From positions 1 to 16,533 of the forward strand of contig JAYWGM010000082.1 in the NCBI GenBank assembly GCA_043778225.1: DNA of 16,533 nt, in the 5' to 3' direction. The notes under the pieces are model-generated. The model was not told where the DNA came from. It did not search any database and saw only the letters and a list, made by a program, of their open reading frames with translations. The DNA is from Deinococcales bacterium. GTDB taxonomy: Bacteria > Deinococcota > Deinococci > Deinococcales > JAAFIG01. Positions 98-16,533 of the stretch are shown in pieces (positions within the stretch are counted from its first letter, which is position 1; every line of letters starts with the position of its first letter). Position numbers and translations under genes: made by a program.

Positions 98-186
98 GAT
101 TGTCTAAAACCACCGAATCTTGTGCTGCTCGAGGTATCTAAGATTCCTCAAATGATAGACCACGCCACAACAAGGTAGACTGCCCC

Positions 187-723
187 ATGAAACAACGACT
201 TATCTTGCTGTTGACCTTTATTTTACTCGGCTCGAGCGCTGGCGCACAGCGTTTTTCAATCGAAGCGGGTTTGAGTAATTTTTTTGGTTTACCGGGAATT
301 GTGGTTGGCGCATACTTGCCAACCGAACCAACGGGCATCAGTGGCGGACGGGTTCATGCTTTTTTTGCTTCAGATGCCCTGAGTGCGCTTGGTTTTTTTG
401 GCGGTACTGGAAAAACAGGCTGGGTTTTTGGGGTGCGTTCTGAAGTTTTGATTGGTCAAAGCCTATTGCCCTTGGTTGGCGTGAATTCGGATGTGCTGGG
501 GGTCTATGCCAAACTTGGGCTACTGCTGATGATTGGTGACATCTCGAGGGCTGGCGGTGGCTTGTGGGCATTGCCTGTTGGAGTTGGTTTGGAAGTGGGC
601 GGTGGGCTGTTGTTGCAACTGCCTAATGTGGTTGGGGCATTTCTCGAGCTTGAGGCTGGCTACTTGTTGCCCGTCCAGTGGTACGCCTTACTGAGCTTTG
701 GTTTACGGGTACGGATTAGTTAG
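187..723 (+). CDS. Hypothetical secreted protein, probable small outer-membrane beta-barrel
   Basis: 178-aa ORF with a Sec-type signal (MKQRLILLLTFILLGSSAGA|Q), Gly-rich alternating hydrophobic strands and C-terminal LLSFGLRVRIS. Its stop codon directly abuts the next ATG. Confidence 0.6.
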   Translation: MKQRLILLLTFILLGSSAGAQRFSIEAGLSNFFGLPGIVVGAYLPTEPTGISGGRVHAFFASDALSALGFFGGTGKTGWVFGVRSEVLIGQSLLPLVGVNSDVLGVYAKLGLLLMIGDISRAGGGLWALPVGVGLEVGGGLLLQLPNVVGAFLELEAGYLLPVQWYALLSFGLRVRIS

Positions 724-1713
724 ATGTACCACCTGACTTTGATTGGTTTGGGCAATGTCAATCGCGGCTTATTGGAATTGCTTGAGCAAAAAAAAGCCGA
801 CCTTGCCGCGTTGGGTATCGAATTTCTAATTACGGGTGTCTACTCGAGAAGACTTGGTTTTGTGGTTAATCCCAACGGCTTAGACATCAAAGCCTTGCTC
901 GAGAATAAGCTACCCGCCGACTCGAGCATTCAAAATGTAGTCGAATTTCTTAAAGCCGCCCAAACCAATGTGCTGTTTGAAGCCTCGAGCCTAGAACCGT
1001 TTAGCGGTCAGCCCGCCATAGATTATATTCGGGCGGCGCTGCAACTCGGCGCTCATGCAATTACCGCCAACAAAGGACCGATTGTTCATGCGGCTGCCGA
1101 ACTCGAGGCACTGGCGGTCGCCAACCACGTCAAATTTAGGTACGAAGCCACGTTTATGGGCGGCATCCCTATTTATAGTTTGTTGCGCGAGTGCTTACCT
1201 GTGGCAAAATTATTGCGTTTTTGTGGTTTACCCAACAGCACCAGCACCGTGATTCTCGAGGCATGGGAAAATGGTTTAAGTTACGAAGCAGGAGTGCGCC
1301 GCGCCCAAGAAATGGGGATTGCCGAAACCGACCCAAGTATGGATGTGGACGGCTGGGACAGCGCCGTTAAAATTGTTGGACTTGCCAACACGGTGATGAA
1401 GGCTCAGCTTAAACTCGAGGATTGCCAAGTGGTTGGTCTCCGTAGCTTAACCCCCGAACAAGTTCGTCATGCCAAAGCTGTCGGTCAACCCTACCGACTT
1501 GTGGCAAGACTTGAACAAACCCCGCAGGGTGTAACGGCTCGGGTGATGCCAGAGCAAGTTGAAGGAGTATTTGCCTTGGTCAGTGGCAACGATATGTTTG
1601 CCCGCTTTGAATTTGATGTTTTGCCAGCCATTGAACTCATTTCAAGAGATTCTGGTGCAAAAGAAACGGCTTACGATATGCTCAGTGACTTTGTGAACCT
1701 CGCCAAGCAGTAG
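724..1713 (+). CDS. hom: Homoserine dehydrogenase (short form, no ACT domain)
   Basis: N-terminal Rossmann loop LIGLGNV, ITANKGP, YEATFMGGIP and GIAETDPSMDVDGWDSAVK, which contains the family's conserved E/D/D/K residues. Confidence 0.85.
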   Translation: MYHLTLIGLGNVNRGLLELLEQKKADLAALGIEFLITGVYSRRLGFVVNPNGLDIKALLENKLPADSSIQNVVEFLKAAQTNVLFEASSLEPFSGQPAIDYIRAALQLGAHAITANKGPIVHAAAELEALAVANHVKFRYEATFMGGIPIYSLLRECLPVAKLLRFCGLPNSTSTVILEAWENGLSYEAGVRRAQEMGIAETDPSMDVDGWDSAVKIVGLANTVMKAQLKLEDCQVVGLRSLTPEQVRHAKAVGQPYRLVARLEQTPQGVTARVMPEQVEGVFALVSGNDMFARFEFDVLPAIELISRDSGAKETAYDMLSDFVNLAKQ

Positions 1714-1722
1714 ACTGAATCC

Positions 1723-2472
1723 ATGCCTAAACAAAGTGTTTGTTGGTGGTGCTTTGAGCATTTATTGAGACCACAAGAATTGGTTCTCGAGTCTGCCCGC
1801 ATTGGTTTTTTAGGCATCGAACTTGTGCCAGAAGAACACTTTGGGCTGGTCAAAGCCCACGGACTCGAGATTGCCACCCACCGTGGGCAGACGAGCATTG
1901 AACGCGGTTGGAATGATCGTGCAAACCATGCCGAACTCGAGCAAGAATTTTTGCAAAGCCTCAAGATGGCTCAAACTTGGCAGATTCCGACCCTGATTGT
2001 TTTTTCGGGCAACCGTTATGGCGTTTTGGATACAGATGGCACACAAATAGCTGCCGAAGGCTTGGCTCGAGTGCTTGGTCATGCCCAAGATGCGGGTGTC
2101 ACGATTGCGCTAGAGTTGCTGAATTCTAAAATCGACCACCCGCACTACATGGCAGACCAGACCGCTTGGGGACTCGAGCTTTGCCAGAGGCTACAATCGC
2201 CAAATTTTGGCTTACTGTACGATATTTACCATATGCAAATCATGGAAGGCGATGTGCTGCGAACGATTCAAAACTTGGGTTCTTGGTTTGTGCATTATCA
2301 TGTGGCTGGCAACCCCGGACGGCACGAACCAGATGCTACGCAAGAATTAAATTACCCAGCCATTGCAAAAGCCTTGGCTGGGTTTGATGGTTTTGTGGGG
2401 CAGGAATGGCAACCAACGGGCAATCCGATTTTGGGTCTCGAGGCTGCGTTTAAGACTTTTAAGCCCGACTAA
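1723..2472 (+). CDS. Hydroxypyruvate isomerase-family (xylose isomerase-like TIM barrel) protein
   Basis: Motifs ELLNSKIDH, LLYDIYHMQIMEGD, HYHVAGNPGRHEP, QELNY and GQEW are typical of the Hyi family. Confidence 0.85.
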   Translation: MPKQSVCWWCFEHLLRPQELVLESARIGFLGIELVPEEHFGLVKAHGLEIATHRGQTSIERGWNDRANHAELEQEFLQSLKMAQTWQIPTLIVFSGNRYGVLDTDGTQIAAEGLARVLGHAQDAGVTIALELLNSKIDHPHYMADQTAWGLELCQRLQSPNFGLLYDIYHMQIMEGDVLRTIQNLGSWFVHYHVAGNPGRHEPDATQELNYPAIAKALAGFDGFVGQEWQPTGNPILGLEAAFKTFKPD

Positions 2473-2476
2473 AGGT

Positions 2477-3844
2477 TTAGCCTTTTTCGCCGCCACTGAG
2501 TTGACCCGACACAAAGACTTGTTGGAAGCTGTAGTACAACAGCACAATCGGAATTGCCCCAAGCACGGCGGCAGCAGCAAATGTGCCGTATTCGACTGAA
2601 AATTGCCCAGTCGCAAAAGAGCGCAGACCGACACCGACATTCCAGTTTTGCGCTCCAGTCACCAAGACATTAGCGGTCAAGAATTCGGTGTATGTACCAA
2701 CAAACTGCATCAAGAAAATAAAAACCATCATTGGACCAGAAAGCGGCAAAACAATTTTGGTAAAGGCAGTCCAACGGGTGCAACCATCCACCAAGGCAGC
2801 TTCCTCGAGACTGGCAGGCAGGCTTTCGACATAGCCCTTATAAATCCAAGTGCCGAACGAAACCGCGCCGCCGGTATAGGCAATCACCAAGCCCGGTAGA
2901 CTTTCGGTTAAGCCAAGGCGATACACAAGTTCGTACATCGCCACCAGACCCAAAAGGGCTGGGAACATTTGAATAAAAATAAGAAACATCAAAAATTCAA
3001 AGCGCCCCGGAAAACGCAGTCGGGCTAAACCATAGCCAGTCGTGGTGCAGAGCAGCACGGTTAAAATACCAGTTGCTCCAGAGACCAAAAAGGTATTGCG
3101 AATCCAGAGTAAGAATTTACTCGAGTTACTAAAGCCTGTAAATTGGTCTATGGTTAAAGACCCAAAGAAAGCAAAGACACCCAGCACCGCAATCCAAGTC
3201 GAAACCAAGCGGGCGCGGTTGGTGCTTGGGTCTACCCGTCCGCCACCGTTGCGCTGCACCAGCACCCAGATGACCCCAATGCCAAGAATACCAGCCGCCG
3301 AAACAGCCAGCAGAATCCATTGCCACGAGTAAATAACGACACCATCAAACAGCTTGGCATAATTGGCAAAACTCATCCCTTCAAGACTCGGCAGGACTCG
3401 AGACCGAATTAAAAGCGGTTCTTGACTGCTGCCCAGTGTGGCTTGGGTCAAGCGGTTAAGTGGGTCAAACGAGGCACTGACGACATAAAAAATTGGATAC
3501 AAAGAAAACAGAATCACAAACCAAAAAAAGACATGGGTCAGTTGGTCGTTTAAGACCGATAAATACTTGACTTTGCCATATTTTCTGCTAGCCTGACCAA
3601 TCAGTTGACCAATAAAACTTGTGCCGCAAACCAGCGCAATTAAGCCCAGCACCACCAACAGCGTGGTGATGCCCGCGTTAGCTGGGCGGATAATCGCAAA
3701 CGAAGGACCTTGAACCCTCGAGTTGAGGTCGCGCCCAAGAAAAAATAAAACAATCAGCACACCAGCCAACAGACTCCAATTCAGCACCACCCGCCAGACT
3801 GGAGTACGTTGTTCGTATTGCATTGGGGCATTCGGGCTACTCAT
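2477..3844 (-). CDS. malG: Maltose/maltodextrin-type ABC transporter permease (MalG-like, N-terminally extended)
   Basis: EAA loop ESLPASLEEAALVDGCT, GYGLARLRFPGR, IQMFP and multiple TM helices. ATGA overlap with the upstream permease at 3841-3844. Confidence 0.85.
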   Translation of the reverse strand: MSSPNAPMQYEQRTPVWRVVLNWSLLAGVLIVLFFLGRDLNSRVQGPSFAIIRPANAGITTLLVVLGLIALVCGTSFIGQLIGQASRKYGKVKYLSVLNDQLTHVFFWFVILFSLYPIFYVVSASFDPLNRLTQATLGSSQEPLLIRSRVLPSLEGMSFANYAKLFDGVVIYSWQWILLAVSAAGILGIGVIWVLVQRNGGGRVDPSTNRARLVSTWIAVLGVFAFFGSLTIDQFTGFSNSSKFLLWIRNTFLVSGATGILTVLLCTTTGYGLARLRFPGRFEFLMFLIFIQMFPALLGLVAMYELVYRLGLTESLPGLVIAYTGGAVSFGTWIYKGYVESLPASLEEAALVDGCTRWTAFTKIVLPLSGPMMVFIFLMQFVGTYTEFLTANVLVTGAQNWNVGVGLRSFATGQFSVEYGTFAAAAVLGAIPIVLLYYSFQQVFVSGQLSGGEKG

Positions 3845-5250
3845 TTGCTTGCCTCCTTAAACACACCAGCCGCACGGAAATTGAAAATCGAAATCACCAC
3901 GGTCAGCACCCCAACAATCACCGAAACTGCGCCAGCTAAGCCATACGCCTGAGCGCCAGCCCCCGTAAAAGCGGTATTAAAACCCCATGAAAGTAAAATA
4001 TCGGTGGCTCGAGCCGTGTTTTCGCGCCCTATTTCGGCAGGTCCGCCACCAGTCAAAAGGTAAATAATCCCAAAGTTATTAAAGTTATAAGCAAAAGTTG
4101 CCAGCACAATCGGCGTGAAGGCGGCTTGGAGCATGGGTAAGGTAATAAACTGGACTTGCTCGAGTTTGGTTGCGCCGTCTACTTCGGCGGCTTCGTAAAG
4201 TTCGTCTGGAATAGCAGAAAGTGCGCCGAGTGTGGCGGTCATCATGTACGGAAAACCAAGCCAAAGATTGACCAACAAAATCGCTACTTTTGCCCAGAGT
4301 GGGTCGGTTAGCCACGGAATTGGCAGCCCACCAAATAAACCCAACAAGCGGTTTAAGCCACCAAAGTTCTGGTTGAGGAGGGCTACCCAAAGTTGAATCG
4401 AAATGACACCTGGCACAGCCCAAGGCAGAATCAGAATCGAGCGATAAAAGTTGCGGAATTTAAGGCGTTTGTTGTTTAATAAAATACCCAGCAGCAAACC
4501 AACAATGACGTTAATAATCGTGGTCGAGATGGCAAAAACCACAGTCCAAATCAAGACTGGATACAACTGGGTACTGGCTTTTGAAAAAATATCTTGGAAA
4601 TTGCCTAAGCCAATGTTGGCAACTGGGTTAATGCGCCGTACTCGAGTAATATCGGTCGGTAGGGCGGGTTGGTTGGGCGCAAGGGTGATGCTATTTCCAG
4701 CCACTTGCAGCACATAATAGGTTGGTCCCGGTTTACCAATTTCGGCATCGGAACGCACTTCAATGGGTTCATTGACACAACCTGTTTGGCGGCAAGCCAG
4801 CGTCTCGAGTTTTGATTCGCCAGTTAATTCGAGCGTATTTGCCCCAGTCGTTCTGACCGAAATTTCGGTGGTGCTGTCTGGGCGGTCGTTGTTTTGCGAA
4901 TTAAAATTGGTAAAGGCATAGCCAAAAGTCATGATAATGGGGTAAACTGTAAACGCCAGCAAACAAATAATGGCTGGCAGCATATAGTACCAGCTAATCA
5001 GCCACGGAAAAAACCGCACCGCAATCAGCAATAAAGGAATCAGTGCCAGCACCACAAAAACCAGCAAAATCCAAGGTTTTATGGTTGGAATTGCGGCAAT
5101 CACCGCACTGGTCAAGACTGTACCGACCAGTAAACCCAAAGCACAAATCCCTAAAACCAAACCAATTGCAAAAGCAACACCAGCGCTTCCCTCTGGGGGT
5201 TTATTTGAGCCAATCCCAAACATATCTGGCTTTGCAGTCATCATCGCCAT
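3841..5250 (-). CDS. malF: Maltose/maltodextrin-type ABC transporter permease (MalF-like)
   Basis: LILPWAVP, VNLWLGFPYMM, EAA loop AIPDELYEAAEVDGA, FAYNFNNF and TDILLSW, plus a periplasmic loop. RBS AAGGAG lies upstream. Confidence 0.87.
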   Translation of the reverse strand: MAMMTAKPDMFGIGSNKPPEGSAGVAFAIGLVLGICALGLLVGTVLTSAVIAAIPTIKPWILLVFVVLALIPLLLIAVRFFPWLISWYYMLPAIICLLAFTVYPIIMTFGYAFTNFNSQNNDRPDSTTEISVRTTGANTLELTGESKLETLACRQTGCVNEPIEVRSDAEIGKPGPTYYVLQVAGNSITLAPNQPALPTDITRVRRINPVANIGLGNFQDIFSKASTQLYPVLIWTVVFAISTTIINVIVGLLLGILLNNKRLKFRNFYRSILILPWAVPGVISIQLWVALLNQNFGGLNRLLGLFGGLPIPWLTDPLWAKVAILLVNLWLGFPYMMTATLGALSAIPDELYEAAEVDGATKLEQVQFITLPMLQAAFTPIVLATFAYNFNNFGIIYLLTGGGPAEIGRENTARATDILLSWGFNTAFTGAGAQAYGLAGAVSVIVGVLTVVISIFNFRAAGVFKEASK

Positions 5251-5276
5251 GTTGCTCTCCTTTTAAGAACCAACGC

Positions 5277-5309
5277 AAACACCCCGCTCTGTAAAAAAGC
5301 GGGGTGTTT
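5277..5309. terminator. Intergenic stem-loop between malE and malF (terminator-like / mRNA-stabilising)
   Basis: Perfect 12-bp stem aaacaccccgct/agcggggtgttt with a 9-nt loop. The T-rich tail is on the + strand (tttatttt); the operon (-) strand has only TTT. Confidence 0.7.
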
Positions 5310-5355
5310 ATTTTAAGACTCGAGCTTATTCATAGATAACCTCGAGACCAAGCAA

Positions 5356-6588
5356 TTACTTCTTGTTGATGGCAGCCTTGATTTGCTTCACGCCTTCGCC
5401 AAGTAAGCTGGCGGCATCAGCGTTGGCAGTTTTGATAATCAGGTTCTGAGCGTCGCCCCAAGGACCCCAAACCTGACCCATTTCTGGGATGTTTGGCATT
5501 GGAATACCTTTGGCAATGGCTGCGCCAAATCCGGCTGCCACTGGGTCTTTGCCCAATTGACGAACCGCACTTTTACTAATTGGTAAGCGTCCGCCAATTT
5601 TGTTGAGGCTGATTTGGTTAGCGTTGCTGACCAAGAACTTAGCAAATTCGGAAGTGACCGGTTTTTGTTTGCTGTAGGCATTCATGACCAAGCCACGAAC
5701 ACCAAGGAAGGGTTGGAAGTCTTGGGTTGCACCAGTTGGGCGTGGTGGTAAGCCGATACCATAGCTAATGCCAGCTTTTTTGATGTCTGCCATTTTCCAA
5801 GGACCGTTCAGCCACATCGCTAAGTTACCCTTGAGGAACAAATCGGTTTGCAGACCATCGTCTTCTGCACCTTCTGGAATCAATTTGTGCTTAAAGCGCA
5901 AGTCGGCAAGCATCTGGGCAGCTTTAATCGAACCTGCGTTGTTTAAGCCAATATCGGCGGTGTTAAAGCTGCCATCTTTATTTTTGCCGAAGACATAGCC
6001 ACCAAAAGCGCGGTAGAAACCATGCTGGTGGTACTGAATACCGATTGGGCTTAGGTAGCCAAATTGTTGTTTTTCGGCATTGGTCAGGTTTTGGGCAACT
6101 TTAATAAACTCGTCCCAAGTTTTTGGAATACCACCTGGCAAGAGCTTTTTGTTGTAAATAAGCGCCACAGCTTCGCCCCACATTGGAATACCGAAAGTAC
6201 GACCTTTGTAATTAAAAGCATCCAAGCTGCTTTCGGCAACGTCGGCTTTGAAGGCTACGCTCAGGTATTTATCCATTGGCTCGAGAACACCAGCGCTGGC
6301 AAATTGACCAACTTGGTCGTGTGGGATTGTGGCAATCAGGTCAGGACCCTCACCTTTTGGGGCGCTTTGGATAAACTTATCGCGGTTTTCGCCCAGTGGC
6401 ACTGCCACAATCTCGAGCTTTGCACCTTTGGCTTGTGGGGTCTTTTCAAAGGCATCGGCGGCTGCCGAGAACCATTTGAGTTCTTCGGTTGCAAAATCCG
6501 TCCAGATAACGAGTTTACTTTGTCCTTGTACTGCTCCTGCCGCAAGCGCGAGGCTGAGTGCGGCGACAACTCCTGCTACTTTCTTCAT
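5356..6588 (-). CDS. malE: Maltose/maltodextrin ABC transporter substrate-binding protein
   Basis: Sec signal without a lipobox Cys. Motifs GEGPDL, PHDQVGQFA, ALIYNKKLL, NGPW, PFLGVRG and PMPNIPEMGQVW. RBS GGAGG. Confidence 0.88.
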   Translation of the reverse strand: MKKVAGVVAALSLALAAGAVQGQSKLVIWTDFATEELKWFSAAADAFEKTPQAKGAKLEIVAVPLGENRDKFIQSAPKGEGPDLIATIPHDQVGQFASAGVLEPMDKYLSVAFKADVAESSLDAFNYKGRTFGIPMWGEAVALIYNKKLLPGGIPKTWDEFIKVAQNLTNAEKQQFGYLSPIGIQYHQHGFYRAFGGYVFGKNKDGSFNTADIGLNNAGSIKAAQMLADLRFKHKLIPEGAEDDGLQTDLFLKGNLAMWLNGPWKMADIKKAGISYGIGLPPRPTGATQDFQPFLGVRGLVMNAYSKQKPVTSEFAKFLVSNANQISLNKIGGRLPISKSAVRQLGKDPVAAGFGAAIAKGIPMPNIPEMGQVWGPWGDAQNLIIKTANADAASLLGEGVKQIKAAINKK

Positions 6589-6626
6589 GGTCTATCCTCC
6601 GTTGGCGCACAGTTCTCGTAGCTGTT

Positions 6627-6640
6627 TGGTAGCGCTTCCA
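6627..6640. promoter_or_regulatory. Putative LacI/GalR-family (MalR-like) operator upstream of malE
   Basis: TGGTAGCGCTTCCA is a 12/14 palindrome with the central AGCGCT typical of LacI-family operators, about 40 bp upstream of the malE start. Confidence 0.6.
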
Positions 6641-6736
6641 TACTCGAGAGTATGGTAAAGCCCTCAAAAACAAGACATGATTTGGCTGTTTGCCTAGCCA
6701 AGATGCTAACACAAGACCTCGTGAAGTGCTAGAGCG

Positions 6737-7471: not shown

Positions 7472-7582
7472 AAAAACCCCCTAAAACTCGAGAACCAAAA
7501 ACCATTGGCGGCTCGAGTCGTCTGGTGGCGGGTAAATGGCTTCGTAAACAACACAATTCACAACCCGCAAAGATTAACATAC

Positions 7583-7611
7583 TTGCGCCAGCCTTGGGCT
7601 GGTGCTATTGT
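7583..7611 (+). promoter_or_regulatory. Putative sigma70 promoter of tRNA-Ala
   Basis: TTGCGC (7583-7588), 17-bp spacer, TATTGT (7606-7611) with a TGn extension, ending 8 bp before the tRNA. Confidence 0.55.
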
Positions 7612-7619
7612 TTTTTTAT

Positions 7620-7695: not shown

Positions 7696-7698
7696 TCA

Positions 7699-9193: not shown

Positions 9194-9269
9194 GATTTTC
9201 TCCAATTTTTAAGGCACAATAGTTTCGGAATGTTTTTGATTTTTTGCGTCTATAACGCATTTGGATTTT

Positions 9270-9296
9270 GTAGGGGTAGACCCCCGTGTCTACCTT
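9270..9296 (+). repeat. GTAG-type REP-like palindrome
   Basis: GTAG followed by the stem ggtagac/gtctacc around the loop ccccgt; isolated GC-rich palindrome in an AT-rich intergenic spacer. Confidence 0.5.
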
Positions 9297-9367
9297 GTAG
9301 GACAAGATAATTTGGATTTCTCCTGAAAAATATTCTGAACAATGGCTGTAAGTCAATCACCAGAAAC

Positions 9368-10330
9368 TCACACCAACAACTCGAGCAGTGGCACAGTCGA
9401 ATTGACTACTAACGCACTCAGGCTGTCCTCGAGTTGCTGCAACGTGCGACAACCAACAATCGGAACGGTCAAAAACGGTTGCGAAATTAAGTAATTCAGC
9501 ACAATTTGCGTAATCGTCCAGTTGGTCGTCTGCTGAATGCGTTGAATTTGCCTCGAGCGCTCGAGATTACCAGCAAGTGGGTACGGGCGGCGTGCATCGG
9601 GATTCATCTGTTCAAGGCTGCCGCTCAAAATTCGTTGGAATAAGCCGTTGGCTTGGGCGCTGTACGGCATGGCTGCTAGACCAGTAGAGTTGTGGTACGC
9701 GATTAAGTCGTTGTCCATGACCACCATTGTTTGGTCAGGTATCGCGCTGGGTTCGATCACCGCCGCGCTCCACATCACCTGACTGGCAACAAAGCCCTGA
9801 ATACCGTGCAAAACAGCGTATTCTTGGGCAAGTCTGAGCCGCTCGAGACTCCAATTTGAAGCCCCAAAGTAGCGAATTGTGCCACGTTTGACCAATTCGT
9901 TGAGCGTCCCCAAAATGTCTTCAACGGGTCGGGCAGGGTCGTCGCGGTGCAGCCAGTAAAGGTCTATCCAATCGGTTTGTAAATGCTCCAAACTTTCTTC
10001 GAGGTCGGTCTGGATTTCGAGTCTGGACAGCCGCCCAAGCTGCATCGTCTCGAGCTTTGGATGTGCGCCCTTGGTGGATACGATGATTTTTTGACGGTTC
10101 TGACAACTTTTCATCCACAGCCCAATGGTTTTTTCACTCATGTGCTTTTCGCCAGCCAGCCAATTCGAGTAGACATGGGCTGTGTCGAGCAGATTGCCGC
10201 CGCGCTCAACAAAATAATCCAGCAGCCCAAAAGCGTCTTGACGGTTGATGGTGTTACCAAAACCAACCGTTCCAAGGCTGATTGGTGAGACCTCGAGTTT
10301 AGTGTTGGGAATCTGGCGATGCAGCATCAT
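9368..10330 (-). CDS. Aldo/keto reductase
   Basis: VSPISLGT, GGNLLDTAHVY (catalytic D/Y), SEKTIG, VSTKG, IDLYWLHRDD, IRYFGASNW and PIVGCRT. Confidence 0.92.
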   Translation of the reverse strand: MMLHRQIPNTKLEVSPISLGTVGFGNTINRQDAFGLLDYFVERGGNLLDTAHVYSNWLAGEKHMSEKTIGLWMKSCQNRQKIIVSTKGAHPKLETMQLGRLSRLEIQTDLEESLEHLQTDWIDLYWLHRDDPARPVEDILGTLNELVKRGTIRYFGASNWSLERLRLAQEYAVLHGIQGFVASQVMWSAAVIEPSAIPDQTMVVMDNDLIAYHNSTGLAAMPYSAQANGLFQRILSGSLEQMNPDARRPYPLAGNLERSRQIQRIQQTTNWTITQIVLNYLISQPFLTVPIVGCRTLQQLEDSLSALVVNSTVPLLELLV

Positions 10331-10428
10331 GTTTCCTATTTTGACTTAAAGTCTCTGATTTGAGTTATGAATTCTGATGACAATGGTTGTTTAGACTGCG
10401 CTGAGAGCCTCGTTAAAGTAAATCACGA

Positions 10429-11742
10429 TTAAGAACTTGGTTCTGCTTGTAACTGCCACGCTTGACCATTTGGAAATTCAAACTCCTCAAGCGATGCGCT
10501 TTTCATTTCAATGCTGTAGCCAGATTCTCGAGGGGCGACATAATGCCCATTTTGAATCGTGCAAGGGTAAAGAAAATGTTCGTGCAGATGATCCACAAAT
10601 TCAGTCACTCGATTCTCGAGTGAACCCGAAACGGCAATATAATCAAAAATACTCAGGTGCTGCACGTACTCGCACAGTCCCACACCACCAGCGTGCGGAC
10701 AGACTGGAATACCAAACTTAGCGCACATTAACAGCACCGCTAAGTTCTCGTTGACTCCGCCCATTCGGGCGGCATCTATCTGACAAAAAGAAATCGCTTG
10801 GGCTTGCAATAATTGCTTAAATAAAACTCGGTTCTGACCCATTTCGCCCGTGGCAACACCAATTCCAAAAGGCTGCATGGCTTTGGCTATCGTGGCATGA
10901 CCAAGAATGTCATCAGGTGAAGTCGGTTCTTCAATCCAGAGCGGCTTAAAAATGGCGAGGTGCTGCATCCAATCTATCGCTTCTTGAACATCCCAAACTT
11001 GGTTGGCATCCACCATCAAAAAATTATTCCAACCAATTTCTTCTCGAATAATTGTAGCGCGGCGAATATCATCCTCGAGATTCCGACCAATCTTTATTTT
11101 AATGTGCTTAAAACCCTGTGCTAGTGCCTCTTGGCATAATCGCCTGATTTTATCATCGGGATAGCCAAGCCAGCCAGCGCTGGTGGTGTAGGCAGGATTG
11201 CCAGTTTTGAGCATTTGGGCGGTTCTGACTGCTTTGGTTGGCTCGAGGCGCGTCAGAATCTCGAGTGCTTCTGATGGCGTTAAAGCATCGGTGATGTACC
11301 TAAAATCTATGCAGCCCACCAATTGGCGCGGGGTCATGTCTGCCAGTAAACGCCAAAGTGGTTTATCCTCGAGTTTCGCCCATAAATCCCAAACGGCGTT
11401 AATCACGGCGGCTGTCGCCAGATGAATCACACCTTTTTCCGGACCAATCCAACGAAGCTGCGAATCAGAGGTGATGTGCCGATAAAACTTGCCCATGTCA
11501 GCCGTAAAATCCTCGAGTGTATGCCCGATAATAAGTGGTTTGAGGGCATGAATGGCTGCCACCACAACTTCGTTACCTCGTCCAATGGTAAAGGTTAGTC
11601 CATGCCCCGTTAAACTCGAGTCAGTATGCAGTATCACATAGGCTGCGCTGTAATCAGGGTCTGGATTCATGGCATCTGAACCATCCAAGTGCTGAGAAGT
11701 TGGAAAACGAATGTCTTTGACCTGTAAATGCGTGATTTTCAT
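10429..11742 (-). CDS. fucD: L-fuconate dehydratase (FucD/ENOSF1-type enolase superfamily)
   Basis: Diagnostic [92 protein letters not shown] and [10 protein letters not shown]. Start placed at ATG 11742 (MKITHL, AAGGGA RBS). Confidence 0.9.
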
Positions 11743-11831
11743 GCTTAAATCCCTTACCTTTAACGTCACTTTCGAGAAATCCTTAGACTCAATTTGGTTT
11801 GCTTCTGTAAAAACTAAAGCTACAGCAATGT

Positions 11832-14800
11832 TCAGGCAACCACGGTCAGACCAAGTAAGCTAACCACCACTTCTTGGGATAGACACTCGAGCGAAACTTG
11901 TACCAACTCGAGGTTCGGGCGCAGTGGACAGTTGATGACCACCGCCCGAATATGCTTCCCAAGTTGCACTTGTGGTGGTGGATTCGGCAGCGCGAACGCA
12001 TCAATGTCCCAGTCGTAGCGTCCCGATAGTGACAAGTAATTATCGGGGTGAATCAGCGCCGCTGAATCGGTACTTCCATCGGCGTAGGTCAGGTGCAGGG
12101 CAGCATTGGCGATTCCAACCTGCATTGGGTTGGTTGTGCCAGATACGAGGACATACAGGTTGCGTCCAACTGCCGAAATCTCGAGGTCAATCTGAGTTGG
12201 AAAGTTATCCCAGCGCGAGGTTAGGCAAGCATTCAACCCACTTTCGCTCCACAAAAATGGAACTCGAGCCTCGCTCCAAAGCCAGCCTTGTCGGTCTGGG
12301 ATTACGTTGTCAAACTCGAGAATTGGCGGTTTGATATTCCAGAACGGATATGTCCAAGGCGAGTAGCCATCTGTGCCGAGTTGTGCCGAACAGGTCTCTG
12401 GACGTGGGGACAAGTACGATTGCTGGTAAATGGTTCGCAAGTCCGCATTGAAATAAGCGCCAATCTCGAGCGGCTGCCAGTGCTGTTCGGTGCTTGGAGA
12501 CGGTTCAATCAGAACTTGGATAGGCGCAAGAATCTGAATCTCGAGCGGTTGGTAACGCAGACACCCCAGATGCTCGAGGCGAGCCAGTACCAAGTGTTTG
12601 CCGATTGATTCCCCGAGGGTTGCTCGAAAGCCATGTGCTTGTTGTTCTACTCCTACCAAACACATTTGGGGATTCTCGAGTGCGGTCAATTCATCCGTCC
12701 AGAACTGCGTGACCGTTTCACCCGCGAAGCCCTCGAGCAAAATGGGTTTCAGGGCTTCTCGCTGACCTTCCCAGCGTACACAGACCGTCGCCGAAGTTGT
12801 TGCAATTTCAGACTCGAGCGTCAAACGCGTGTCCCCATACCCCGGCTCGAGCGTGAATGGGACTGGCTGCCCATTGAGCGTGACCTCGAGTACCTGTTCG
12901 CAGAGCAAAGGCAGTATCCATCGGACTCGGGCGGCGCGACTCAGGTGTAATGCGTAGGTGGACTCGCCGTTGGCACTCAGAAACTCGAGTTTGAATTCGG
13001 GCGTTTTGATGCTTGCGCTGTCCCAATCGTCGGGAAATTGCGGCGCACAAATGACCATACCTTGTGGGTAATTCGGGCGTAAACCAAATAAGCCCTCGAG
13101 TACAACTCGCCCAAATAAGCTGACTCCATCGGCAAAATCGGTGGCTCGCCCCTGACGATGAGGCTCGAGTCCTCGGCTGGGGAAATGCGGCGCGATGTTG
13201 ATTGTACCGGGGCTGGTGGAACGAAAAGCCGATTCATGCACCACACCAGTCAAGAGTTTGTACCCATCGCGTCCTCGCCCAGATTGGTAGTACGCCAACG
13301 CCAGATGCAGCGTATCGGCAAAATCGAGTTCACGCACTGACCATTCATAAGGAACCCAGTTGTTCAGCCAGCACAACTCACCGCCCTCGACTGCCACCCG
13401 CTCGAGACCCCATTCGGTGTAATGCAGGTTTTGCCACGCCTCGATTTGGGTGAGCATCGCTGCGTCTATTGGCAGAAAAATGGTGTACAAACAAGCGATG
13501 TCATGACGACGTTTCAAACCCAACGCATCGCGGTACTCTGCCAGATGCCCACGCTCGATAATCCACAGTGACTCGAGGACACCCGTGCGGATTTTCTCGG
13601 CTCGAGAACGGTGCAAGTCTGCCCGCTCGAGTAATCCTGCACGTTCACAGAGTTCGGCGGCTGCAAGATACCCTGTGTAGGCATAGGCGCTGGACTGGGC
13701 GGTGCCACCGCCGTTGTACCAGACCGAATCACTTGCCCAAACATTGAGGTAACTTTCGTACACCCCGTCGTCGTCTGGGTCAAAGCATTCGCGCTGCCAC
13801 TCGAGATGAAGCTCGAGCGCGGGCAGTAACAACGCCTCGAGTTCGGCATCTTGAGTCCAGCGCCAAGTGTGAATCAGTTGGTCAAAATAAACTTCCTGCA
13901 TATTGTAGAACTCGGCGTAAATCGAAATGCGTCCCAACCCGTAAAAGCGTGAATCATGACTTTGCAAGCACTGTAATAGCTTCGAGTCAGACTGGAAACC
14001 GTGGAGGCTCGAGTCCTGAACTTGATGCGGCAAAATGTGTTTTGCCTCGCTAATCACGCGGCTCGAGTAGCCGTAAGCAGTTGGACCGTAGCGGATTCGC
14101 CAACCGAGAAATGGGATGTTCCAAGCCATGCAGCCGTGAACAAAAGCAGGTGGGTAAAAAAGTGCGTCCATCGAAGCGTTTGAGGCATCCATGACCCGAT
14201 CCAGAAAAGCATTAGGAGTACGACAGACCACGGTTTGGAGTTGCCGTTCGGCTCTCGCTTGACCCGCCTCGAAATCCGTTTTTGGCTTGCGGGTTAGATG
14301 TTCGCTGTTTGGCTGTCCGATGCTCCAATACAGTGCGTCTGATGGAATTGTTAATCGCCCAGCCAGCAATGGATGCTTGAGCAAAGCTAATTGCGTCGGG
14401 TTCTCGAGGAACGTTGGGTCAGTCCAAAGATTTGCATCCACCAGATTCAGTTCATAACCCGCAGGAAAAAAGCCCACCACACCAGAGGATTCTCCCTGCG
14501 GATGCAAGACCGAAAAATGCGTCTCGAGAACCGAAAAGACATTTTCTTTGCAACCGCTCGGGTCAAAACCTTTTTCGGTCAGTTCCGGGTGTTCGTTGGG
14601 GTCAAGTGTCCACAGCAGATTGCTCTCGACTTTGGGTTTTATACCGCCATACACCCAAAGCAGTTCATCCTCGAGTTGACTGCCCAGTACCTCGAGCCGC
14701 ACTGCAAAACCCGCGCCTTCTGCCCATGGCACAACCTCGAGTTTGAGTTCCAGCCCCTCGAGCCGTGAATCGGACAGTTGCCACGAGGTTCGGTTGGGCT

Positions 14801-15035
14801 TAAAAGTGGTCTGGCGATGGTCGAAATCGTGCAACCAGACGGTTTGCTGACCGCGTTTGATCGCAAGCATCAAATCGCCGCAGACCGCTTGTCCGTAAGC
14901 CAAACGCAGGCAGGGTTGGTCGCCACTGAGGACAACGCTGGGAAGATTCGCACCGTAAAGCGGACGGTTATGAAAACGTGTTCCGTTCTGGCAGACGATG
15001 GCAGTATCAGTTGGGCGATAAAGTGAAGTCGTCAT
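11832..15035 (-). CDS. DUF4450-like large protein, putative (alpha/alpha)6-barrel glycoside hydrolase
   Basis: N-terminal [12 protein letters not shown]...SGDQP; central [25 protein letters not shown] and [26 protein letters not shown]-terminal SRWDNFP and GTTNPMQ. The family is recognised from memory, not by search. No signal peptide. ATGA-coupled to the upstream GH78. Confidence 0.65.
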
Positions 15036-16533
15036 GGTTGTCCTTTAATCATTCGAGCATCACTTTCAAACTCGTACTCACCCGAGCCAAGCTCAAAAAC
15101 CCTCAATCCATGCTCGAGTTTGCCTTGAGAAGACTCGAATGGTTTTTGACCCTCGAGAATCTGCACGTTTGGAATCGGATAATGTAGGGTTGCGCTCGTA
15201 TTGGCTGGGATTCGCACGCGCCAATAGAAACGATGATGCTCGAATCGCCACTCGCTTTGAATCAAACCACTGATGCTGTTGTACGAGGCTCGAGCTTGTG
15301 TGAGACCGCCACCGGGTTGAGCGCCTAAGCGAATGTGTCTGAAGCCCGGTGCGAGGTTGTCAATACCCGCAACGGTTTGATACAACCACTGTCCGACACT
15401 GCCCAGCGAGTAGTGATTGAACGAGTTCATGCCCGCGTCCTGAAAGCCGTTTTCGGGTGTCCAACCGTCCCAGCGTTCCCAAATACTGGTTGCGCCCATG
15501 CGAATCGAGAAACCCCACGATGGAAAAGTATCGTTTAGCAGTAACCGGTAGGCGGTCTCGAGGTGTCCTGTCGCAGTCAGTGTGGGACAGAGATAACCAA
15601 CCCCCACAAAGCCAGTCGAGAGGTGCTGGTTTTTTGCAGCGATGTCCTCCAGAAGTCGCGCCGTGACTTGTTCACGTCTTGAAGCTGGGACAAGCTCGAA
15701 GTGAAGCGCCAGCACTTGCCCAGTTTGGGTATGATCACGAATCCAACCATCTGGCTCGAGGAAAGCAGCATTAAACGCCTCGCGGATTTTAGCAAATAAA
15801 CTTTCAAACTCGAGTGCTTCGGTTTCGCGTCCAATCACCCTTGCCATCTTTGCCATCAGACTTGCATCGTATGCCCAGTAAGCCGTTGCTAAAACATCTT
15901 TGTTTGTCTCTGCGCCAACCGATAACCAATCACCAAAGTCGTGGTTGCGCCGCTCGAGCCACAAATGATTTGGATTTGCCTCGGCGATATAGCCCATCCA
16001 AGCATTCATGCCTGCCCAATGGCGTTCAATCAGGCGCGTATCGCCGTAGACCTGATAAATTGTCCACGGAACGATAATCCCAGCATCTCCCCAAGCGGGC
16101 GCGGCATCTTTATAATCCACAACTCGAGGTGCGACATCCGAATATGCACCTGTTGGTGATTGCGCGTCTTCAACGTCTTGTAACCATTTTGTAAAGAAAG
16201 CTGCAACGTTTGCTAGAAAGCTCGAGGTTCGCACAAAAATTTGGCTATCGCCGAGCCAGCCAAGTCGTTCATCGCGCTGTGGGCAATCGGTTGGGACACT
16301 CAGAAAATTACTGCGCTGCGACCAACGAATGTTAGAAAAAAGCTGATTGACCATTTGGCTCGAGCATTCAAAAGTACCTGTGTCTGGCGTGTCCGAACCG
16401 ATCACCATTCCCGTGACTGTTTTGAGGCTAGGTTCGTAATTCAAGCCCGCTATTTCGACAAACCGAAAACCATGAAAAGTAAAGTGTGGTTCGTAAATCT
16501 CGAGATGGTCGCCACGCAGAATATAAGTATCGG
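15032..16533 (-). CDS. Alpha-L-rhamnosidase (GH78), 5' part outside the window
   Basis: PTDCPQRDERLGWLGD, PAWGDAG, FGDWL, STGFVG, GATSIWERW and MNSFNHY. The frame stays open to the window edge (DTYILRGDHLEIYEPHFTFHGFRFVE), so the TTG start at 16444 in the ORF track is not the real start. Confidence 0.92.
   Translation of the reverse strand, partial: DTYILRGDHLEIYEPHFTFHGFRFVEIAGLNYEPSLKTVTGMVIGSDTPDTGTFECSSQMVNQLFSNIRWSQRSNFLSVPTDCPQRDERLGWLGDSQIFVRTSSFLANVAAFFTKWLQDVEDAQSPTGAYSDVAPRVVDYKDAAPAWGDAGIIVPWTIYQVYGDTRLIERHWAGMNAWMGYIAEANPNHLWLERRNHDFGDWLSVGAETNKDVLATAYWAYDASLMAKMARVIGRETEALEFESLFAKIREAFNAAFLEPDGWIRDHTQTGQVLALHFELVPASRREQVTARLLEDIAAKNQHLSTGFVGVGYLCPTLTATGHLETAYRLLLNDTFPSWGFSIRMGATSIWERWDGWTPENGFQDAGMNSFNHYSLGSVGQWLYQTVAGIDNLAPGFRHIRLGAQPGGGLTQARASYNSISGLIQSEWRFEHHRFYWRVRIPANTSATLHYPIPNVQILEGQKPFESSQGKLEHGLRVFELGSGEYEFESDARMIKGQP

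What the first reader, a model, noticed from the sequence alone, without database searches (positions are those of the whole stretch)
128..16504. CTCGAG is a highly iterated palindrome (about 25-fold over chance), a HIP1-like system outside cyanobacteria
Seen: about 99 copies of CTCGAG by hand count in 16.5 kb (about 1 per 170 bp), versus about 4 expected for a 6-mer at equal base frequencies. It occurs in all three frames (Leu-Glu CTC GAG; TAC TCG AGA at 841; GCT CGA GTG at 2065, using a CGA Arg codon) and at six intergenic sites (128, 5319, 5341, 6643, 7487, 7512), so it is not just amino-acid bias. Known: palindromic restriction sites are normally avoided. CTCGAG is the XhoI/PaeR7I site and contains TCGA, the TaqI site. 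Cyanobacterial HIP1 (GCGATCGC) is the precedent for a hyper-abundant palindrome tied to a DNA methyltransferase site. Inference: this lineage has a dedicated process that creates or keeps CTCGAG, such as methylation-directed repair, a chromosome-organising protein, or an uptake/recombination signal.
Basis: partly seen in the sequence, partly recalled or inferred. Interest (0 to 1): 0.85.

Follow-up and report, generated by a model that had tools for sequence, protein, structure and literature searches.

The report
Hyper-abundant CTCGAG palindrome in Deinococcales
This uncultured relative of Deinococcus has written the six-letter palindrome CTCGAG into its DNA about once every 160 bases, while almost every other palindrome of that size has been erased, and the DNA of its viruses carries the same mark, so an unknown process that acts on all DNA in these cells seems to be at work.

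Summary
Observation confirmed. The window holds exactly 99 CTCGAG (2.2 expected from dinucleotide shuffles). The genome holds 24,877, one per 162 bp, about 27x expectation. Density is equal in coding and non-coding DNA and the sites fall in all three frames. The count is 9.4x a synonymous-codon-shuffle null, and Leu-Glu is the most over-represented dipeptide. All 19 genomes of the family share the trait, as do 2 of 3 species of a genus in another family. Deinococcus proper does not. I found no paper reporting it. This scan has flagged it before on other DNA.

New here:
- The genome is otherwise purged of restriction-type palindromes (29 of 64 hexamer palindromes below 0.05x).
- CRISPR spacers (8.5 sites/kb) and a CRISPR-targeted virus-like contig (2.8/kb) are also CTCGAG-rich.
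- Sites arise by substitution, are kept 68% vs 28% for control hexamers, and one-off variants are rare.
- Spacing is random.

Best reading (about 0.4): a sequence-directed repair or conversion bias acting on all DNA in the cell. Main rival: a selected self signal that invaders mimic. It resembles cyanobacterial HIP1 but is denser, shorter, and has no identified enzyme.

The parts
128..16504 (.). The 99 CTCGAG sites of the window (6.0 per kb). 93 lie inside the 12 long ORFs (frames 70/9/14) and 6 lie between them.
128..133 (.). Intergenic site upstream of the first ORF. It is not covered by the alignments to congeners.
5319..5346 (.). Pair of intergenic sites 22 bases apart, just beyond a G+C-rich hairpin followed by a T-run (about 5281-5315, read by eye as an intrinsic terminator). 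The sites are not part of that hairpin. Site 5319 is kept in 5 of 5 covered congeners and 5341 in 2 of 5.
6643..6648 (.). Intergenic site private to this genome (0 of 5 covered congeners; they read CTGGA-, CT-GAA or ACCAAG).
7487..7517 (.). Pair of intergenic sites 25 bases apart, between the YebC-like gene and a tRNA gene (7620-7692). They are kept in 4 of 5 and 5 of 5 covered congeners.
11832..15035 (-). Densest gene of the window: a 1,067-aa DUF4450 protein with 31 sites (9.7 per kb).
5356..6588 (-). Sparsest gene of the window: a solute-binding protein with 2 sites (1.6 per kb), both kept in all 7 congeners. This gene was used to place the organism.

Best explanation
SHOWN: CTCGAG is a real hyper-iterated palindrome, genome-wide and clade-wide. 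It sits in a genome otherwise stripped of restriction-type palindromes. Individual sites arise by point substitution. They are held far longer than other hexamers and are placed almost at random. They occur at the same density inside and between genes. The motif is also enriched in the DNA that invades this organism. INFERRED (my committed mechanism): a weak but constant push at every potential site, of roughly ln(27) = 3.3 in scaled units, comes from a sequence-directed bias in mismatch repair or gene conversion. When one strand of a mismatched duplex reads CTCGAG, the other strand is corrected to match. New sites are therefore fixed more often than chance, and decaying sites are restored. 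This is the same logic as Elhai's ratchet model for HIP1 and, in a narrower form, as very-short-patch repair. Because such a bias works on any DNA that replicates or recombines in the cell, it also marks phages and plasmids, and it needs no minimum spacing. Whether methylation supplies the strand signal is open. No enzyme has been identified.
For: (1) Strength and generality: 24,877 sites at 26.7x expectation; 26.2x in coding and 31.3x in non-coding DNA at the same 6.17 per kb; all three frames; 9.4x over a synonymous shuffle. (2) Attractor behaviour: at orthologous positions in 7 congeners a site is either perfect (67.7%) or two or more changes away (26.3%). One-off states make up 5.9%, against 34.6% for control hexamers. 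Gains and losses balance, 53 to 60. (3) Substitution, not insertion: sites align to gaps in 1.4-3.7% of cases (background 2.3-2.5%). The usual change keeps a conserved Leu and rewrites the next residue to Glu. (4) No spacing selection: gap CV is 1.00, gaps of 801-1,600 bases occur at 0.95 of the geometric expectation, and there is no helical periodicity. A function that needs only one site per stretch would give even spacing and diminishing returns. A per-site bias would not. (5) It acts on invaders. The 43 CRISPR spacers of this genome hold 10 sites (8.45 per kb; 0.27 expected from composition, Poisson 4e-13), with no self matches. The one confidently matched target is a virus-like 6.4-kb contig of a congener with 2.8 sites per kb (13x). 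Real phage contigs elsewhere carry the same signature in all frames, with Leu-Glu 2.1-2.5x. (6) Foreign low-GC islands lack the motif. (7) All 18 one-mismatch neighbours sit near normal frequency and no single position is singled out. This fits a whole-site force and not a deamination patch.
Against: No enzyme is in hand. No Vsr was found, and no methyltransferase orthologue group is shared across the family. I know of no characterised repair activity that corrects any of the six positions of a hexamer. Conservation, attractor behaviour and balanced turnover are equally expected under weak selection for each site. The 186 site x genome cells come from 7 related genomes and are not independent. 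Spacers could in part derive from relatives' chromosomes rather than phages. Only 1 of 43 has a confident target, and there are no other confident hits in 18 relatives. The hosts of the CTCGAG-rich IMG/VR phages are unknown. G000 is 89% complete.
Confidence: 0.4

Rival explanations
1. A selected 'self' signal. Each CTCGAG is read by host machinery that handles incoming or broken DNA, such as an uptake receptor, a recombination hotspot reader or a nuclease that spares marked DNA, in the manner of DUS/USS or Chi. Successful phages and plasmids have been selected to mimic the mark.
For: Recent HIP1 work points this way. HIP1 raises natural transformation in a methylation-dependent way and was likened to Chi (abstract of bioRxiv 10.1101/2024.09.10.611283). 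HIP1 abundance also correlates with competence proteins (passages of PMC13756078). Here, sites are conserved, are missing from foreign islands, and invaders carry them, which mimicry would explain. The wholesale purge of other palindromes shows a lineage under heavy pressure from foreign DNA and restriction.
Against: No RecB/AddAB-type nuclease domain was found in G000 (PF12705, 0 hits; genome 89% complete). An uptake bias would not act on phage genomes. Known uptake and Chi signals work at about one per kb or less, so the 150th site on a phage should add little. Yet density is one per 160 bases, at the cost of amino-acid changes. Spacing shows no evenness. Density is no higher between genes than within them. 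Pairs in non-coding DNA show only a weak hump at 21-27 bases.
Confidence: 0.25
2. A methylation system of the HIP1 type in the strict sense of Elhai 2015. A CTCGAG- or TCGA-specific orphan methyltransferase marks the sites, and methyl-directed repair or protection maintains them. The enzyme differs from genome to genome by non-orthologous replacement.
For: Every genome examined has several DNA methyltransferases of unknown specificity. G000 has a TaqI-like enzyme with a TaqI_C specificity domain. In cyanobacteria both m5C and m4C enzymes serve the same HIP1 core (passage of PMC4390886). The ratchet model predicts a whole-site force and action on phage DNA.
Against: No group is coextensive. The TaqI-like enzyme is in 3 of 19 family genomes. 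The other five traced groups are in 1, 2, 4 and 5 of 19, and 9 of 24. The complete chromosome G013 has 0 PF01555 hits and a single C5 enzyme, and G010 has 0 C5 enzymes. No Vsr was found. There is no excess of the deamination products TTCGAG or CTTGAG over the other transition neighbour (o/e 1.39 and 1.40 against 1.18), which argues against m5C.
Confidence: 0.15
3. Binding sites for a lineage-specific nucleoid or chromosome-organising protein.
For: Even genome-wide density, conservation, and independence from reading frame.
Against: This gives no reason for viruses and spacers to carry the motif. There is no helical or regular spacing. The tens-of-kb periodicity reported for HIP1 was not tested because the assembly is in 107 contigs.
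Confidence: 0.07
4. No special process: the count is a by-product of codon usage, dipeptide content, base composition or the avoidance of other words.
For: 59% of coding sites are in the Leu-Glu frame. GC-rich relatives such as the Thermus-like genus g9 reach about 0.8-1 per kb from ordinary codon usage.
Against: The count is 46x over dinucleotide shuffles and 9.4x over synonymous shuffles that already contain the inflated codon usage. The density is equal in non-coding DNA. Leu-Glu itself is inflated 2.33x while Glu-Leu is 0.97x. The other spared palindromes reach only 1.1-2.5x.
Confidence: 0.01

Closest known systems
HIP1 (GCGATCGC), the highly iterated palindrome of cyanobacteria (Elhai 2015, PMC4390886, passages read; Xu, Lawrence and Durand 2018, PMC5861425, passages read)
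   Same: A short palindrome far above expectation across a whole clade. It occurs in coding and non-coding DNA, is conserved beyond codon preference, and has no gene-level function. It contains a restriction-type core and is still unexplained.
   Different: Six bases, not eight. About 6,200 sites per Mb here, against 300-2,700 per Mb quoted for HIP1. A different phylum. No methyltransferase coextensive with it, whereas GATC and CGATCG enzymes are almost coextensive with HIP1. One-off variants are rare at orthologous positions here (5.9%), whereas Elhai calls them common and Xu et al. find them conserved. Neither paper's main text mentions phages (0 occurrences each), while here invaders share the motif. 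The tens-of-kb periodicity was not tested.
Alternate HIPs of single cyanobacterial lineages (GGGATCCC, TCGATCGA, CAGGCCTG, GCsGC, rCCGGy)
   Same: They show that the identity of the iterated palindrome can change between lineages. That matches the patchy distribution here: family f1, 2 of 3 species of genus g23, and G042.
   Different: Each is reported together with a matching methyltransferase. None is CTCGAG ('CTCGAG' occurs 0 times in PMC4390886 and PMC13756078).
DNA uptake sequences of Neisseria and Pasteurellaceae, and their accumulation by molecular drive
   Same: A lineage-specific word that accumulates by many point substitutions, in genes in all frames, and is absent from foreign DNA.
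   Different: Those are 9-12 bases long, not palindromic, occur about once per kb, and are enriched between genes and in terminator pairs. Here the word is 6 bases, occurs once per 160 bases, has equal density in genes, and is present in viral DNA.
Chi sites with RecBCD/AddAB (recalled; mentioned in the introduction of PMC4390886)
   Same: An over-represented short word that marks self DNA for the recombination machinery. Short Chi words can be frequent.
   Different: Chi is asymmetric and oriented with replication. No RecB-type nuclease domain was found in G000.
Very-short-patch repair and the excess of CCWGG in E. coli (recalled)
   Same: A repair bias tied to one sequence context raises that word's frequency. 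This is the only well-understood precedent for the proposed mechanism.
   Different: It acts on one position (T:G at the methylated C), depletes one specific neighbour, gives a modest excess, and needs Dcm and Vsr. Here no Vsr was found, no neighbour is singled out, and the excess is 27-fold.
Restriction-site (palindrome) avoidance in bacterial genomes (Rocha et al. 2001, seen only in Elhai's reference list; otherwise recalled)
   Same: The purge of the other palindromes, including degenerate ones such as RGATCY, GRGCYC and GGYRCC, has the spectrum of type II restriction sites. The virus-like contig and the spacers share it.
   Different: The depth is extreme: median o/e 0.077, and 29 of 64 hexamer palindromes below 0.05. 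It coexists with the opposite extreme for one palindrome.

Membership tests
Highly iterated palindromes (HIP1 and alternates) | A short palindrome many-fold above expectation throughout the genome and across a clade | tested here: met
   26.7x in G000; 19 of 19 family genomes at 4.3-6.8 per kb
Highly iterated palindromes (HIP1 and alternates) | Present in coding DNA in all frames and in non-coding DNA, and not explained by codon usage | tested here: met
   Frames 12,819 / 4,375 / 4,507; 6.17 per kb in both compartments; 9.4x over synonymous shuffle
Highly iterated palindromes (HIP1 and alternates) | Sites conserved between related genomes more than control oligomers | tested here: met
   68% against 28% in 7 congeners. 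Intergenic sites are kept in 16 of 25 cells. The genomes are related, so cells are not independent.
Highly iterated palindromes (HIP1 and alternates) | A methyltransferase for the motif or its core present wherever the motif is abundant (Elhai 2015) | tested here: inconclusive
   No orthologue group is coextensive: six groups traced, found in 1-9 genomes each, and six genomes clustered. Specificity cannot be read from sequence. Five probable R-M enzymes, three HsdM and the large type IIG-like enzymes of G000 were not traced.
Highly iterated palindromes (HIP1 and alternates) | Quasi-periodic distribution on a scale of tens of kb (Xu et al. 2018) | not tested
   G000 is in 107 contigs. Only short-range spacing was examined.
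DNA uptake sequences (DUS/USS) | Preferential uptake of DNA that carries the word | not testable with these tools
   Needs a cultured, competent member
DNA uptake sequences (DUS/USS) | Excess between genes, often as inverted pairs that form terminators | tested here: not met
   Equal density in and between genes. Only a weak hump at 21-27 bases in non-coding gaps. The window's two intergenic pairs are not terminator stems.
Chi-type recombination signals | A RecBCD/AddAB-type helicase-nuclease that reads the word | tested here: not met
   PF12705: 0 hits in G000, while the control rang in 11 of 14 genomes. The genome is 89% complete.
Very-short-patch-type repair bias | A Vsr endonuclease, and depletion of the one neighbour that differs at the methylated cytosine | tested here: not met
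   PF03852: 0 hits. Transition neighbours are at o/e 1.18-1.40 with none depleted.
XhoI/PaeR7I-type restriction-modification target | A cognate nuclease and methyltransferase pair in the genome | tested here: inconclusive
   PF04555 (XhoI): 0 hits, but the control rang in no genome. The TaqI-like methyltransferase is present in 3 of 19 family genomes only.

The most novel reading that the evidence does not exclude
These bacteria carry a so far unknown sequence-directed repair or conversion activity, perhaps derived from a restriction-type protein, that needs no conserved methyltransferase. It steadily rewrites any DNA replicating in the cell (chromosome, plasmids and viruses alike) towards CTCGAG. 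It operates in lineages that have at the same time erased nearly every other restriction-type palindrome. The word would then be a heritable watermark of the host cell on DNA, and a second, independent and experimentally cleaner entry into the 30-year-old HIP1 problem.
Probability: 0.25. Interest if true: 0.9.

Novelty: new variant of a known kind. Interest (0 to 1): 0.8.

Why it matters
Highly iterated palindromes have been a cyanobacterial puzzle for three decades. A second case in an unrelated phylum is useful for that reason alone, and this one is denser and built on a different word. It also has a natural on/off contrast inside one genus: G156 and G157 have the trait and G158 does not. 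That turns the puzzle into a comparative problem in which the responsible genes can be sought by gene-content comparison. The force is strong enough to make Leu-Glu the commonest excess dipeptide of the proteome, so it is a clear example of a DNA-level process rewriting proteins. The motif is shared by CRISPR spacers and a targeted virus-like element. If that holds, it rules out purely chromosomal functions and bears on the current uptake-signal hypothesis for HIP1. The near-total loss of other restriction-type palindromes is among the deepest avoidance patterns I know of (from recall), and it marks this lineage as one under exceptional restriction pressure. In practice, motif density flags foreign DNA in these genomes and could help to assign viruses to these hosts.

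Tried and rejected
Codon, dipeptide or composition artefact: rejected.

Window-only or assembly artefact: rejected.

Footprint of a mobile element (6-base insertions): rejected, since sites align to gaps no more often than background.

Regular arrays, helical phasing or hairpin pairs: not seen. The window's intergenic pairs are not terminator stems.

Candidate methyltransferases traced and found not coextensive:
- C65 TaqI-like: 3 of 19 family genomes.
- C2 C5: 5 of 19.
- C41: 2 of 19.
- C101: 4 of 19.
- C99 HTH-C5: 1 of 19.
- D12 group A: 9 of 24.
- Clustering the hits of six genomes gave only scattered orthologue sets, the largest in three genomes.

Families with 0 hits in G000: Vsr, XhoI nuclease (control silent), RecB-type nuclease, HK97 capsid.

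Linking the palindrome purge to the enrichment: they are separable. G042 is enriched without a purge, and locus L012 is purged without enrichment.

Hosts of the CTCGAG-rich IMG/VR contigs could not be assigned:
- 4 weak hits of 604 viral ORFs in G000.
- The L239 terminase is about 40% identical to alphaproteobacterial phage terminases.
- It is 39-45% identical to Deinococcus prophage terminases, with none in f1 or G042.
- A second query found nothing.

Enlarging the spacer sample:
- The repeat occurs in 0 of 18 relatives.
- G016 has a related array of only 3 repeats.
- The newest spacer has no exact match in the viral or metagenome contigs.
- The packaging ATPase of the targeted element has no relatives in the viral contigs.

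Population variants: the runs are kept as contigs only. 0 of the 40 listed variant places (of 322) fall in a site, where about 1.4 were expected, so the test has no power.

A low-density stretch that I suspected to be rRNA or CRISPR (C34) is one giant ORF.

Literature: 0 papers hold 'CTCGAG' together with 'highly iterated palindrome'. 2 papers hold CTCGAG, Deinococc and overrepresented; the one listed concerns other organisms. Two further searches found nothing relevant. Delaye and Moya 2011 (PMC3271550) is not held, so its survey of HIP1 among prokaryotes was not seen.


Full report
THE OBSERVATION. 200 dinucleotide-preserving shuffles gave a mean of 2.16 and never more than 7. Measured against the 12 long ORFs, 70 sites read CTC|GAG, 9 read xxC TCG AGx and 14 read xCT CGA Gxx. 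The six intergenic sites are exactly 128, 5319, 5341, 6643, 7487 and 7512. The window is the whole of contig C82 of a 4.03-Mb, 107-contig assembly that is 89% complete.

GENOME-WIDE COUNTS. The genome has 24,877 sites, one per 162 bases. That is 26.7 times the zero-order expectation at 48.7% G+C. CTCGAG is by far the commonest hexamer, and the next commonest are its own one-base shifts. The flanking bases show only a weak preference, so the word really is six bases long. Every contig carries 3.99-10.6 sites per kb. 5-kb windows average 30.9 sites (sd 6.8), and only 6 of 1,449 windows have 8 or fewer.

I called 3,280 ORFs of at least 120 codons as a crude gene set.
- Density is 6.17 per kb inside these ORFs and 6.17 per kb outside them. 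That is 26.2x and 31.3x the local composition.
- Shuffling synonymous codons within each gene keeps the protein and the gene's already inflated codon usage. It gives 2,308 +/- 41 sites against 21,701 observed.
- 69% of 18,544 Leu-Glu pairs are written CTC-GAG. Yet CTC makes up 9.2% of Leu codons not followed by Glu, and GAG makes up 22.6% of Glu codons not preceded by Leu.
- Leu-Glu is the most over-represented dipeptide of the proteome (o/e 2.33), while Glu-Leu is at 0.97.

The enrichment is therefore not codon or dipeptide bias, and it has changed protein sequences.

WHO HAS IT. A solute-binding protein of the window placed the organism among uncultured Deinococcales known only from metagenome-assembled genomes. 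In the loci fetched with it, CTCGAG is 10-29x expectation in 13 loci of that lineage, whose G+C ranges from 45 to 62%. It is 0.3-1.4x in Deinococcus, 1.5-3.7x in Thermus, and at most about 4x elsewhere.

Whole-genome counts gave the following:
- Family f1: all 19 genomes, in 5 genera, hold 12,028-35,442 sites (4.3-6.8 per kb).
- The survey covered 364 Deinococcota genomes.
- The extreme state also occurs in family f3, genus g23. G156 has 16,253 sites in 1.9 Mb and G157 has 24,536 in 3.5 Mb. Their congener G158 has 683 in 2.3 Mb.
- G042 (genus g19, 67% G+C) has 13,562 sites.
- The 111 genomes of genus g7 have 26-1,372 sites.
- Several genera of families f2 and f5 are intermediate, at 2-3.5 per kb.

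In samples of these genomes, Leu-Glu is 2.0-2.5x expectation in every enriched lineage, 1.16x in G158, and about 1.0x in Deinococcus and Thermus loci. G158 therefore shows almost no fossil of the trait.

PUBLISHED AND EARLIER WORK. I found no paper reporting the motif. 'CTCGAG' occurs 0 times in Elhai 2015 and in the 2026 Genome Biology and Evolution paper on HIP1. This scan has noted the motif before, in 35 notes on at least 16 genomes. One report concerned this same genome, and part of it later fell; the index did not say which part.

CTCGAG is the lone hyper-abundant palindrome in a genome otherwise purged of palindromes.
- Of the 64 palindromic hexamers, 29 are below 0.05 of expectation and the median is 0.077. 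Non-palindromic hexamers have a median of 0.817, and 64 of 4,032 are below 0.05.
- Examples in 4.03 Mb: GACGTC, AGGCCT and GGGCCC occur once each. GGCGCC occurs 3 times and CTTAAG 8 times. GAGCTC, which has the same composition as CTCGAG, occurs 24 times.
- The loss is specific to the hexamer. CGCG occurs 11,832 times, but its four palindromic extensions total 120.
- GGCC occurs 131 times (0.01x) and GATC is at 0.13x.
- The few strongly depleted non-palindromic hexamers either contain GGCC or GATC or belong to degenerate palindromes typical of type II enzymes, such as RGATCY, GRGCYC, GDGCHC, GGYRCC, RCATGY and GRCGYC.
- Spared palindromes include GAATTC, CAATTG, AAATTT, TTGCAA and AGCGCT, at 1.1-2.5x.
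- In the window itself, 39 of the 64 palindromes are absent.

The spectrum is that of restriction avoidance at an unusual depth. This fits the large and fast-changing set of restriction-modification genes in these genomes.

The purge and the enrichment can be separated. Pooled o/e of the other 63 palindromes is 0.32 in G000, 0.43 in G157 and 0.27 in G156. It is 0.80 in G158. It is 0.81 in G042, which is nevertheless 10.6x enriched for CTCGAG. It is 0.21 in a Deinococcus locus (L012) that has no CTCGAG enrichment.

HOW SITES BEHAVE.
- Spacing is close to random. Gaps have a mean of 160.6 and sd of 160.2.
- Pair distances show a three-base period from coding and no helical period. Gaps of 801-1,600 bases occur at 0.95 of the geometric expectation.
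- Distance 6 never occurs; it would create GAGCTC. Distances under 20 are depleted.
- The 18 one-mismatch neighbours are near normal frequency. Transitions are at o/e 1.18-1.40 and transversions at 0.13-0.99, and no position is singled out.
- Against orthologues in G158, G042 and Deinococcus/Thermus loci, Leu-Glu sites of G000 align to gaps in 1.4-3.7% of cases (background 2.3-2.5%).
- They align to Leu-Glu in only 17-24% of cases. Most often they align to Leu-X or to Val/Ile/Phe-Glu. Sites are therefore made by substitution, often next to a conserved Leu.
- In alignments of the window to 7 congeners (only positions 229-7731 are syntenic, at 70-85% identity), 126 of 186 site x genome cells keep the site. 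Control hexamer cells are kept at 28.0% (n = 46,041).
- Intergenic sites are kept in 16 of 25 cells.
- 60 cells have lost a site, and 53 cells have a site that the window lacks.
- One-off states make up 5.9% of cells at sites, against 34.6% at controls.

A position is thus either a perfect site or far from one, which is the behaviour of an attractor. The seven genomes are related, so these cells are not independent. An earlier comparison with other loci gave the same picture: 62-86% of sites kept against 22-35% for controls in six loci at 76-82% identity (a seventh covered only 2 sites).

THE ENZYME QUESTION. G000 has the following:
- five full-length C5 methyltransferases;
- three full N4/N6 enzymes plus fragments;
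- three HsdM;
- a TaqI-like enzyme with a TaqI_C domain;
- another gamma-class enzyme;
- several large type IIG-like proteins;
- three D12-class enzymes;
- no Vsr, and no XhoI-family nuclease, although that control rang in no genome.

Gene neighbourhoods suggest that C33, C38, C55, C79 (inserted in the nuo operon) and C92 are restriction-modification pairs. C2, C41, C99, C101 and C65 look like orphans or long-term residents.

I traced the latter five across 41 genomes:
- C65: 3 of 19 family genomes.
- C2: orthologues in 5 of 19.
- C41: 2 of 19.
- C101: 4 of 19.
- C99: G000 only; the next best match is 45% identical.

The repertoires of five further family genomes show the same mosaic.
- The complete chromosome G013 has 0 PF01555 hits, one C5 enzyme and two PF07669 hits. 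G010 has 0 C5 hits.
- Clustering all hits gave only scattered orthologues. The largest set spans three genomes.
- That set, a D12 enzyme of G013, G009 and G011, has orthologues in 9 of the 24 genomes searched. It has none in G000, in three 94%-complete congeners, or in G156, G157 and G042.

So no methyltransferase that I could trace tracks the motif. Limits: target specificity cannot be read from sequence, the probable R-M enzymes, the HsdM and the large enzymes of G000 were not traced, PF02384 was searched only in G000, and most genomes are incomplete.

INVADERS CARRY THE MOTIF.
- G000 has a 44-repeat CRISPR array at the start of contig C80. Its 43 spacers (1,399 bases, 48% G+C, no match elsewhere in G000) contain 10 CTCGAG, or 8.45 per kb.
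- That compares with 7.3 expected at host density and 0.27 from composition (Poisson 4e-13). The spacers hold 7 other palindromes where about 18 are expected.
- When the array was compared with the 19 family genomes, one spacer matched G001 contig C690 at 94%.
- That 6.4-kb contig has small ORFs on one strand. Among them are a PHROG packaging-ATPase/terminase-like protein and a virion structural protein.
- It holds 18 sites (2.8 per kb, 13.4x) and 26 other palindromes where 100 are expected. It therefore carries both host signatures.
Of the 80 loci fetched with flanks, 17 exceed 3 sites per kb. These are mostly 58-72% G+C and show no purge.
- Three of the six I annotated are clearly phages, with terminase and portal, tape measure and prohead protease, or lysin and ERF. 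They show sites in all frames, with Leu-Glu at 2.1-2.5x in most.
- Their hosts could not be assigned. They show only that the phenomenon extends to viruses, and possibly beyond the lineages sampled here.

WEIGHING MECHANISMS. What is shown is a weak, constant, per-site directional force. It acts on whole sites and not on one position. It needs no particular spacing, works equally in and between genes, and reaches the DNA of invaders.
- Functions that need only a site every so often (uptake signals, Chi, strand signals for repair) predict even spacing and diminishing returns. They do not easily explain one site per 160 bases bought with amino-acid changes, on a small virus as well.
- An uptake bias should not act on phages.
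- A classical Chi reader is not present (PF12705, 0 hits).
- An architectural role gives viruses no reason to comply.

A sequence-directed bias in mismatch repair or gene conversion has the right properties. This is the logic of Elhai's ratchet for HIP1, with or without methylation. It is my best explanation at about 0.4, but it rests on inference, since no enzyme is identified. A selected self mark that invaders mimic is the main rival (0.25). A strict methylation-based HIP system with non-orthologous enzymes is third (0.15).

COMPARISON AND VERDICT. By phenomenology this is a highly iterated palindrome. It is a hyper-abundant, clade-wide palindrome, found in and between genes, conserved, and of unknown function. 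It differs from HIP1 in its word, length, density and phylum. It also differs in the rarity of one-off variants, in the lack of a coextensive methyltransferase, and in the two new observations made here: the purge of other palindromes and the sharing by invaders. I file it as a new variant of a known kind. It is of high interest because it offers an independent route into an old open question and has a built-in contrast within one genus.

Noticed in passing
whole genome G000; in the window 39 of 64 palindromic hexamers are absent: Extreme avoidance of restriction-type palindromes. 29 of 64 hexamer palindromes are below 0.05x and the median is 0.077. GGCC occurs 131 times in 4 Mb and GATC is at 0.13x. 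Degenerate sites such as RGATCY, GRGCYC and GGYRCC are also depleted. A fixed set is spared (GAATTC, CAATTG, AAATTT, TTGCAA, AGCGCT). The same pattern holds in family loci, G156 and G157, but not in G158, G042 or D. pimensis.
   Followed up: partly
IMG/VR loci L195-L274, e.g. L200, L239, L211, L245, L217: Viral contigs of 58-72% G+C with 3-7 CTCGAG per kb (10-21x). They show the host-like signature in all frames and a Leu-Glu excess, but no purge of other palindromes. Hosts are unknown. L270 carries WhiB, which suggests an actinophage. The motif may therefore be enriched in lineages not sampled here.
   Followed up: partly
G000:C80:1-2700 (L349): A CRISPR array of 44 identical 29-base repeats, type I-E-like by the repeat (recalled), with 43 spacers. 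The repeat was found in none of 18 family relatives. G016 has a related 3-repeat array.
   Followed up: yes
G001:C690 (L374, 6,422 bases): A small virus-like element targeted by a G000 spacer. It has one-strand small ORFs, two copies of a 228-aa ORF (one scanned: a packaging ATPase/terminase-like protein), a RelE-like toxin and a virion structural protein. No relatives were found in IMG/VR with one query.
   Followed up: partly
window 1-100: A dispersed repeat that recurs at 98-100% identity at many contig ends of G000, so it probably breaks the assembly. Contig depth there is 6-10 times that of the rest of the window.
   Followed up: no
window about 7810-7858 (wider 7745-7883) and 9216-9343: Two short dispersed repeats. 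A 45-base element at 88-100% identity occurs in dozens of places in all congeners. A 125-base element occurs at 73-85% identity in many places. Depth spikes at 7729-8280.
   Followed up: no
window 8000-16533: The rhamnosidase / DUF4450 / enolase-superfamily / aldo-keto-reductase block has no syntenic counterpart in the 7 congeners. Only paralogue-like hits exist in G000 (C85, C26) and G007. Even so, it is the most CTCGAG-dense part of the window.
   Followed up: no
G000:C79:52753-54650 (L091): An N4/N6 methyltransferase with an unknown 324-aa neighbour sits between the NuoF-like and NuoG-like genes of the complex I operon. It looks like a restriction-modification unit inserted in an operon.
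   Followed up: no
G000:C44:57000-64500 (L325): The only long CTCGAG-free stretch of the genome. It is a 30-37% G+C exopolysaccharide-type gene cluster (EpsG, glycosyltransferases, flippase-like protein, aminotransferase), presumably imported.
   Followed up: partly
G000:C34:25001-33482 and C93:5001-15550: Two giant ORFs, one over 2,800 aa and open at both ends, the other 3,513 aa with PQQ/BamB-like and Ig-like repeats. Both have unusually low CTCGAG density, about 1-2 per kb.
   Followed up: no
genomes G156, G157 versus G158 (same genus g23): A natural on/off contrast for the enrichment, the palindrome purge and the Leu-Glu excess, all within one genus. G+C is 50-56% in all three, and G158 is assembled in 5 contigs.
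   Followed up: partly
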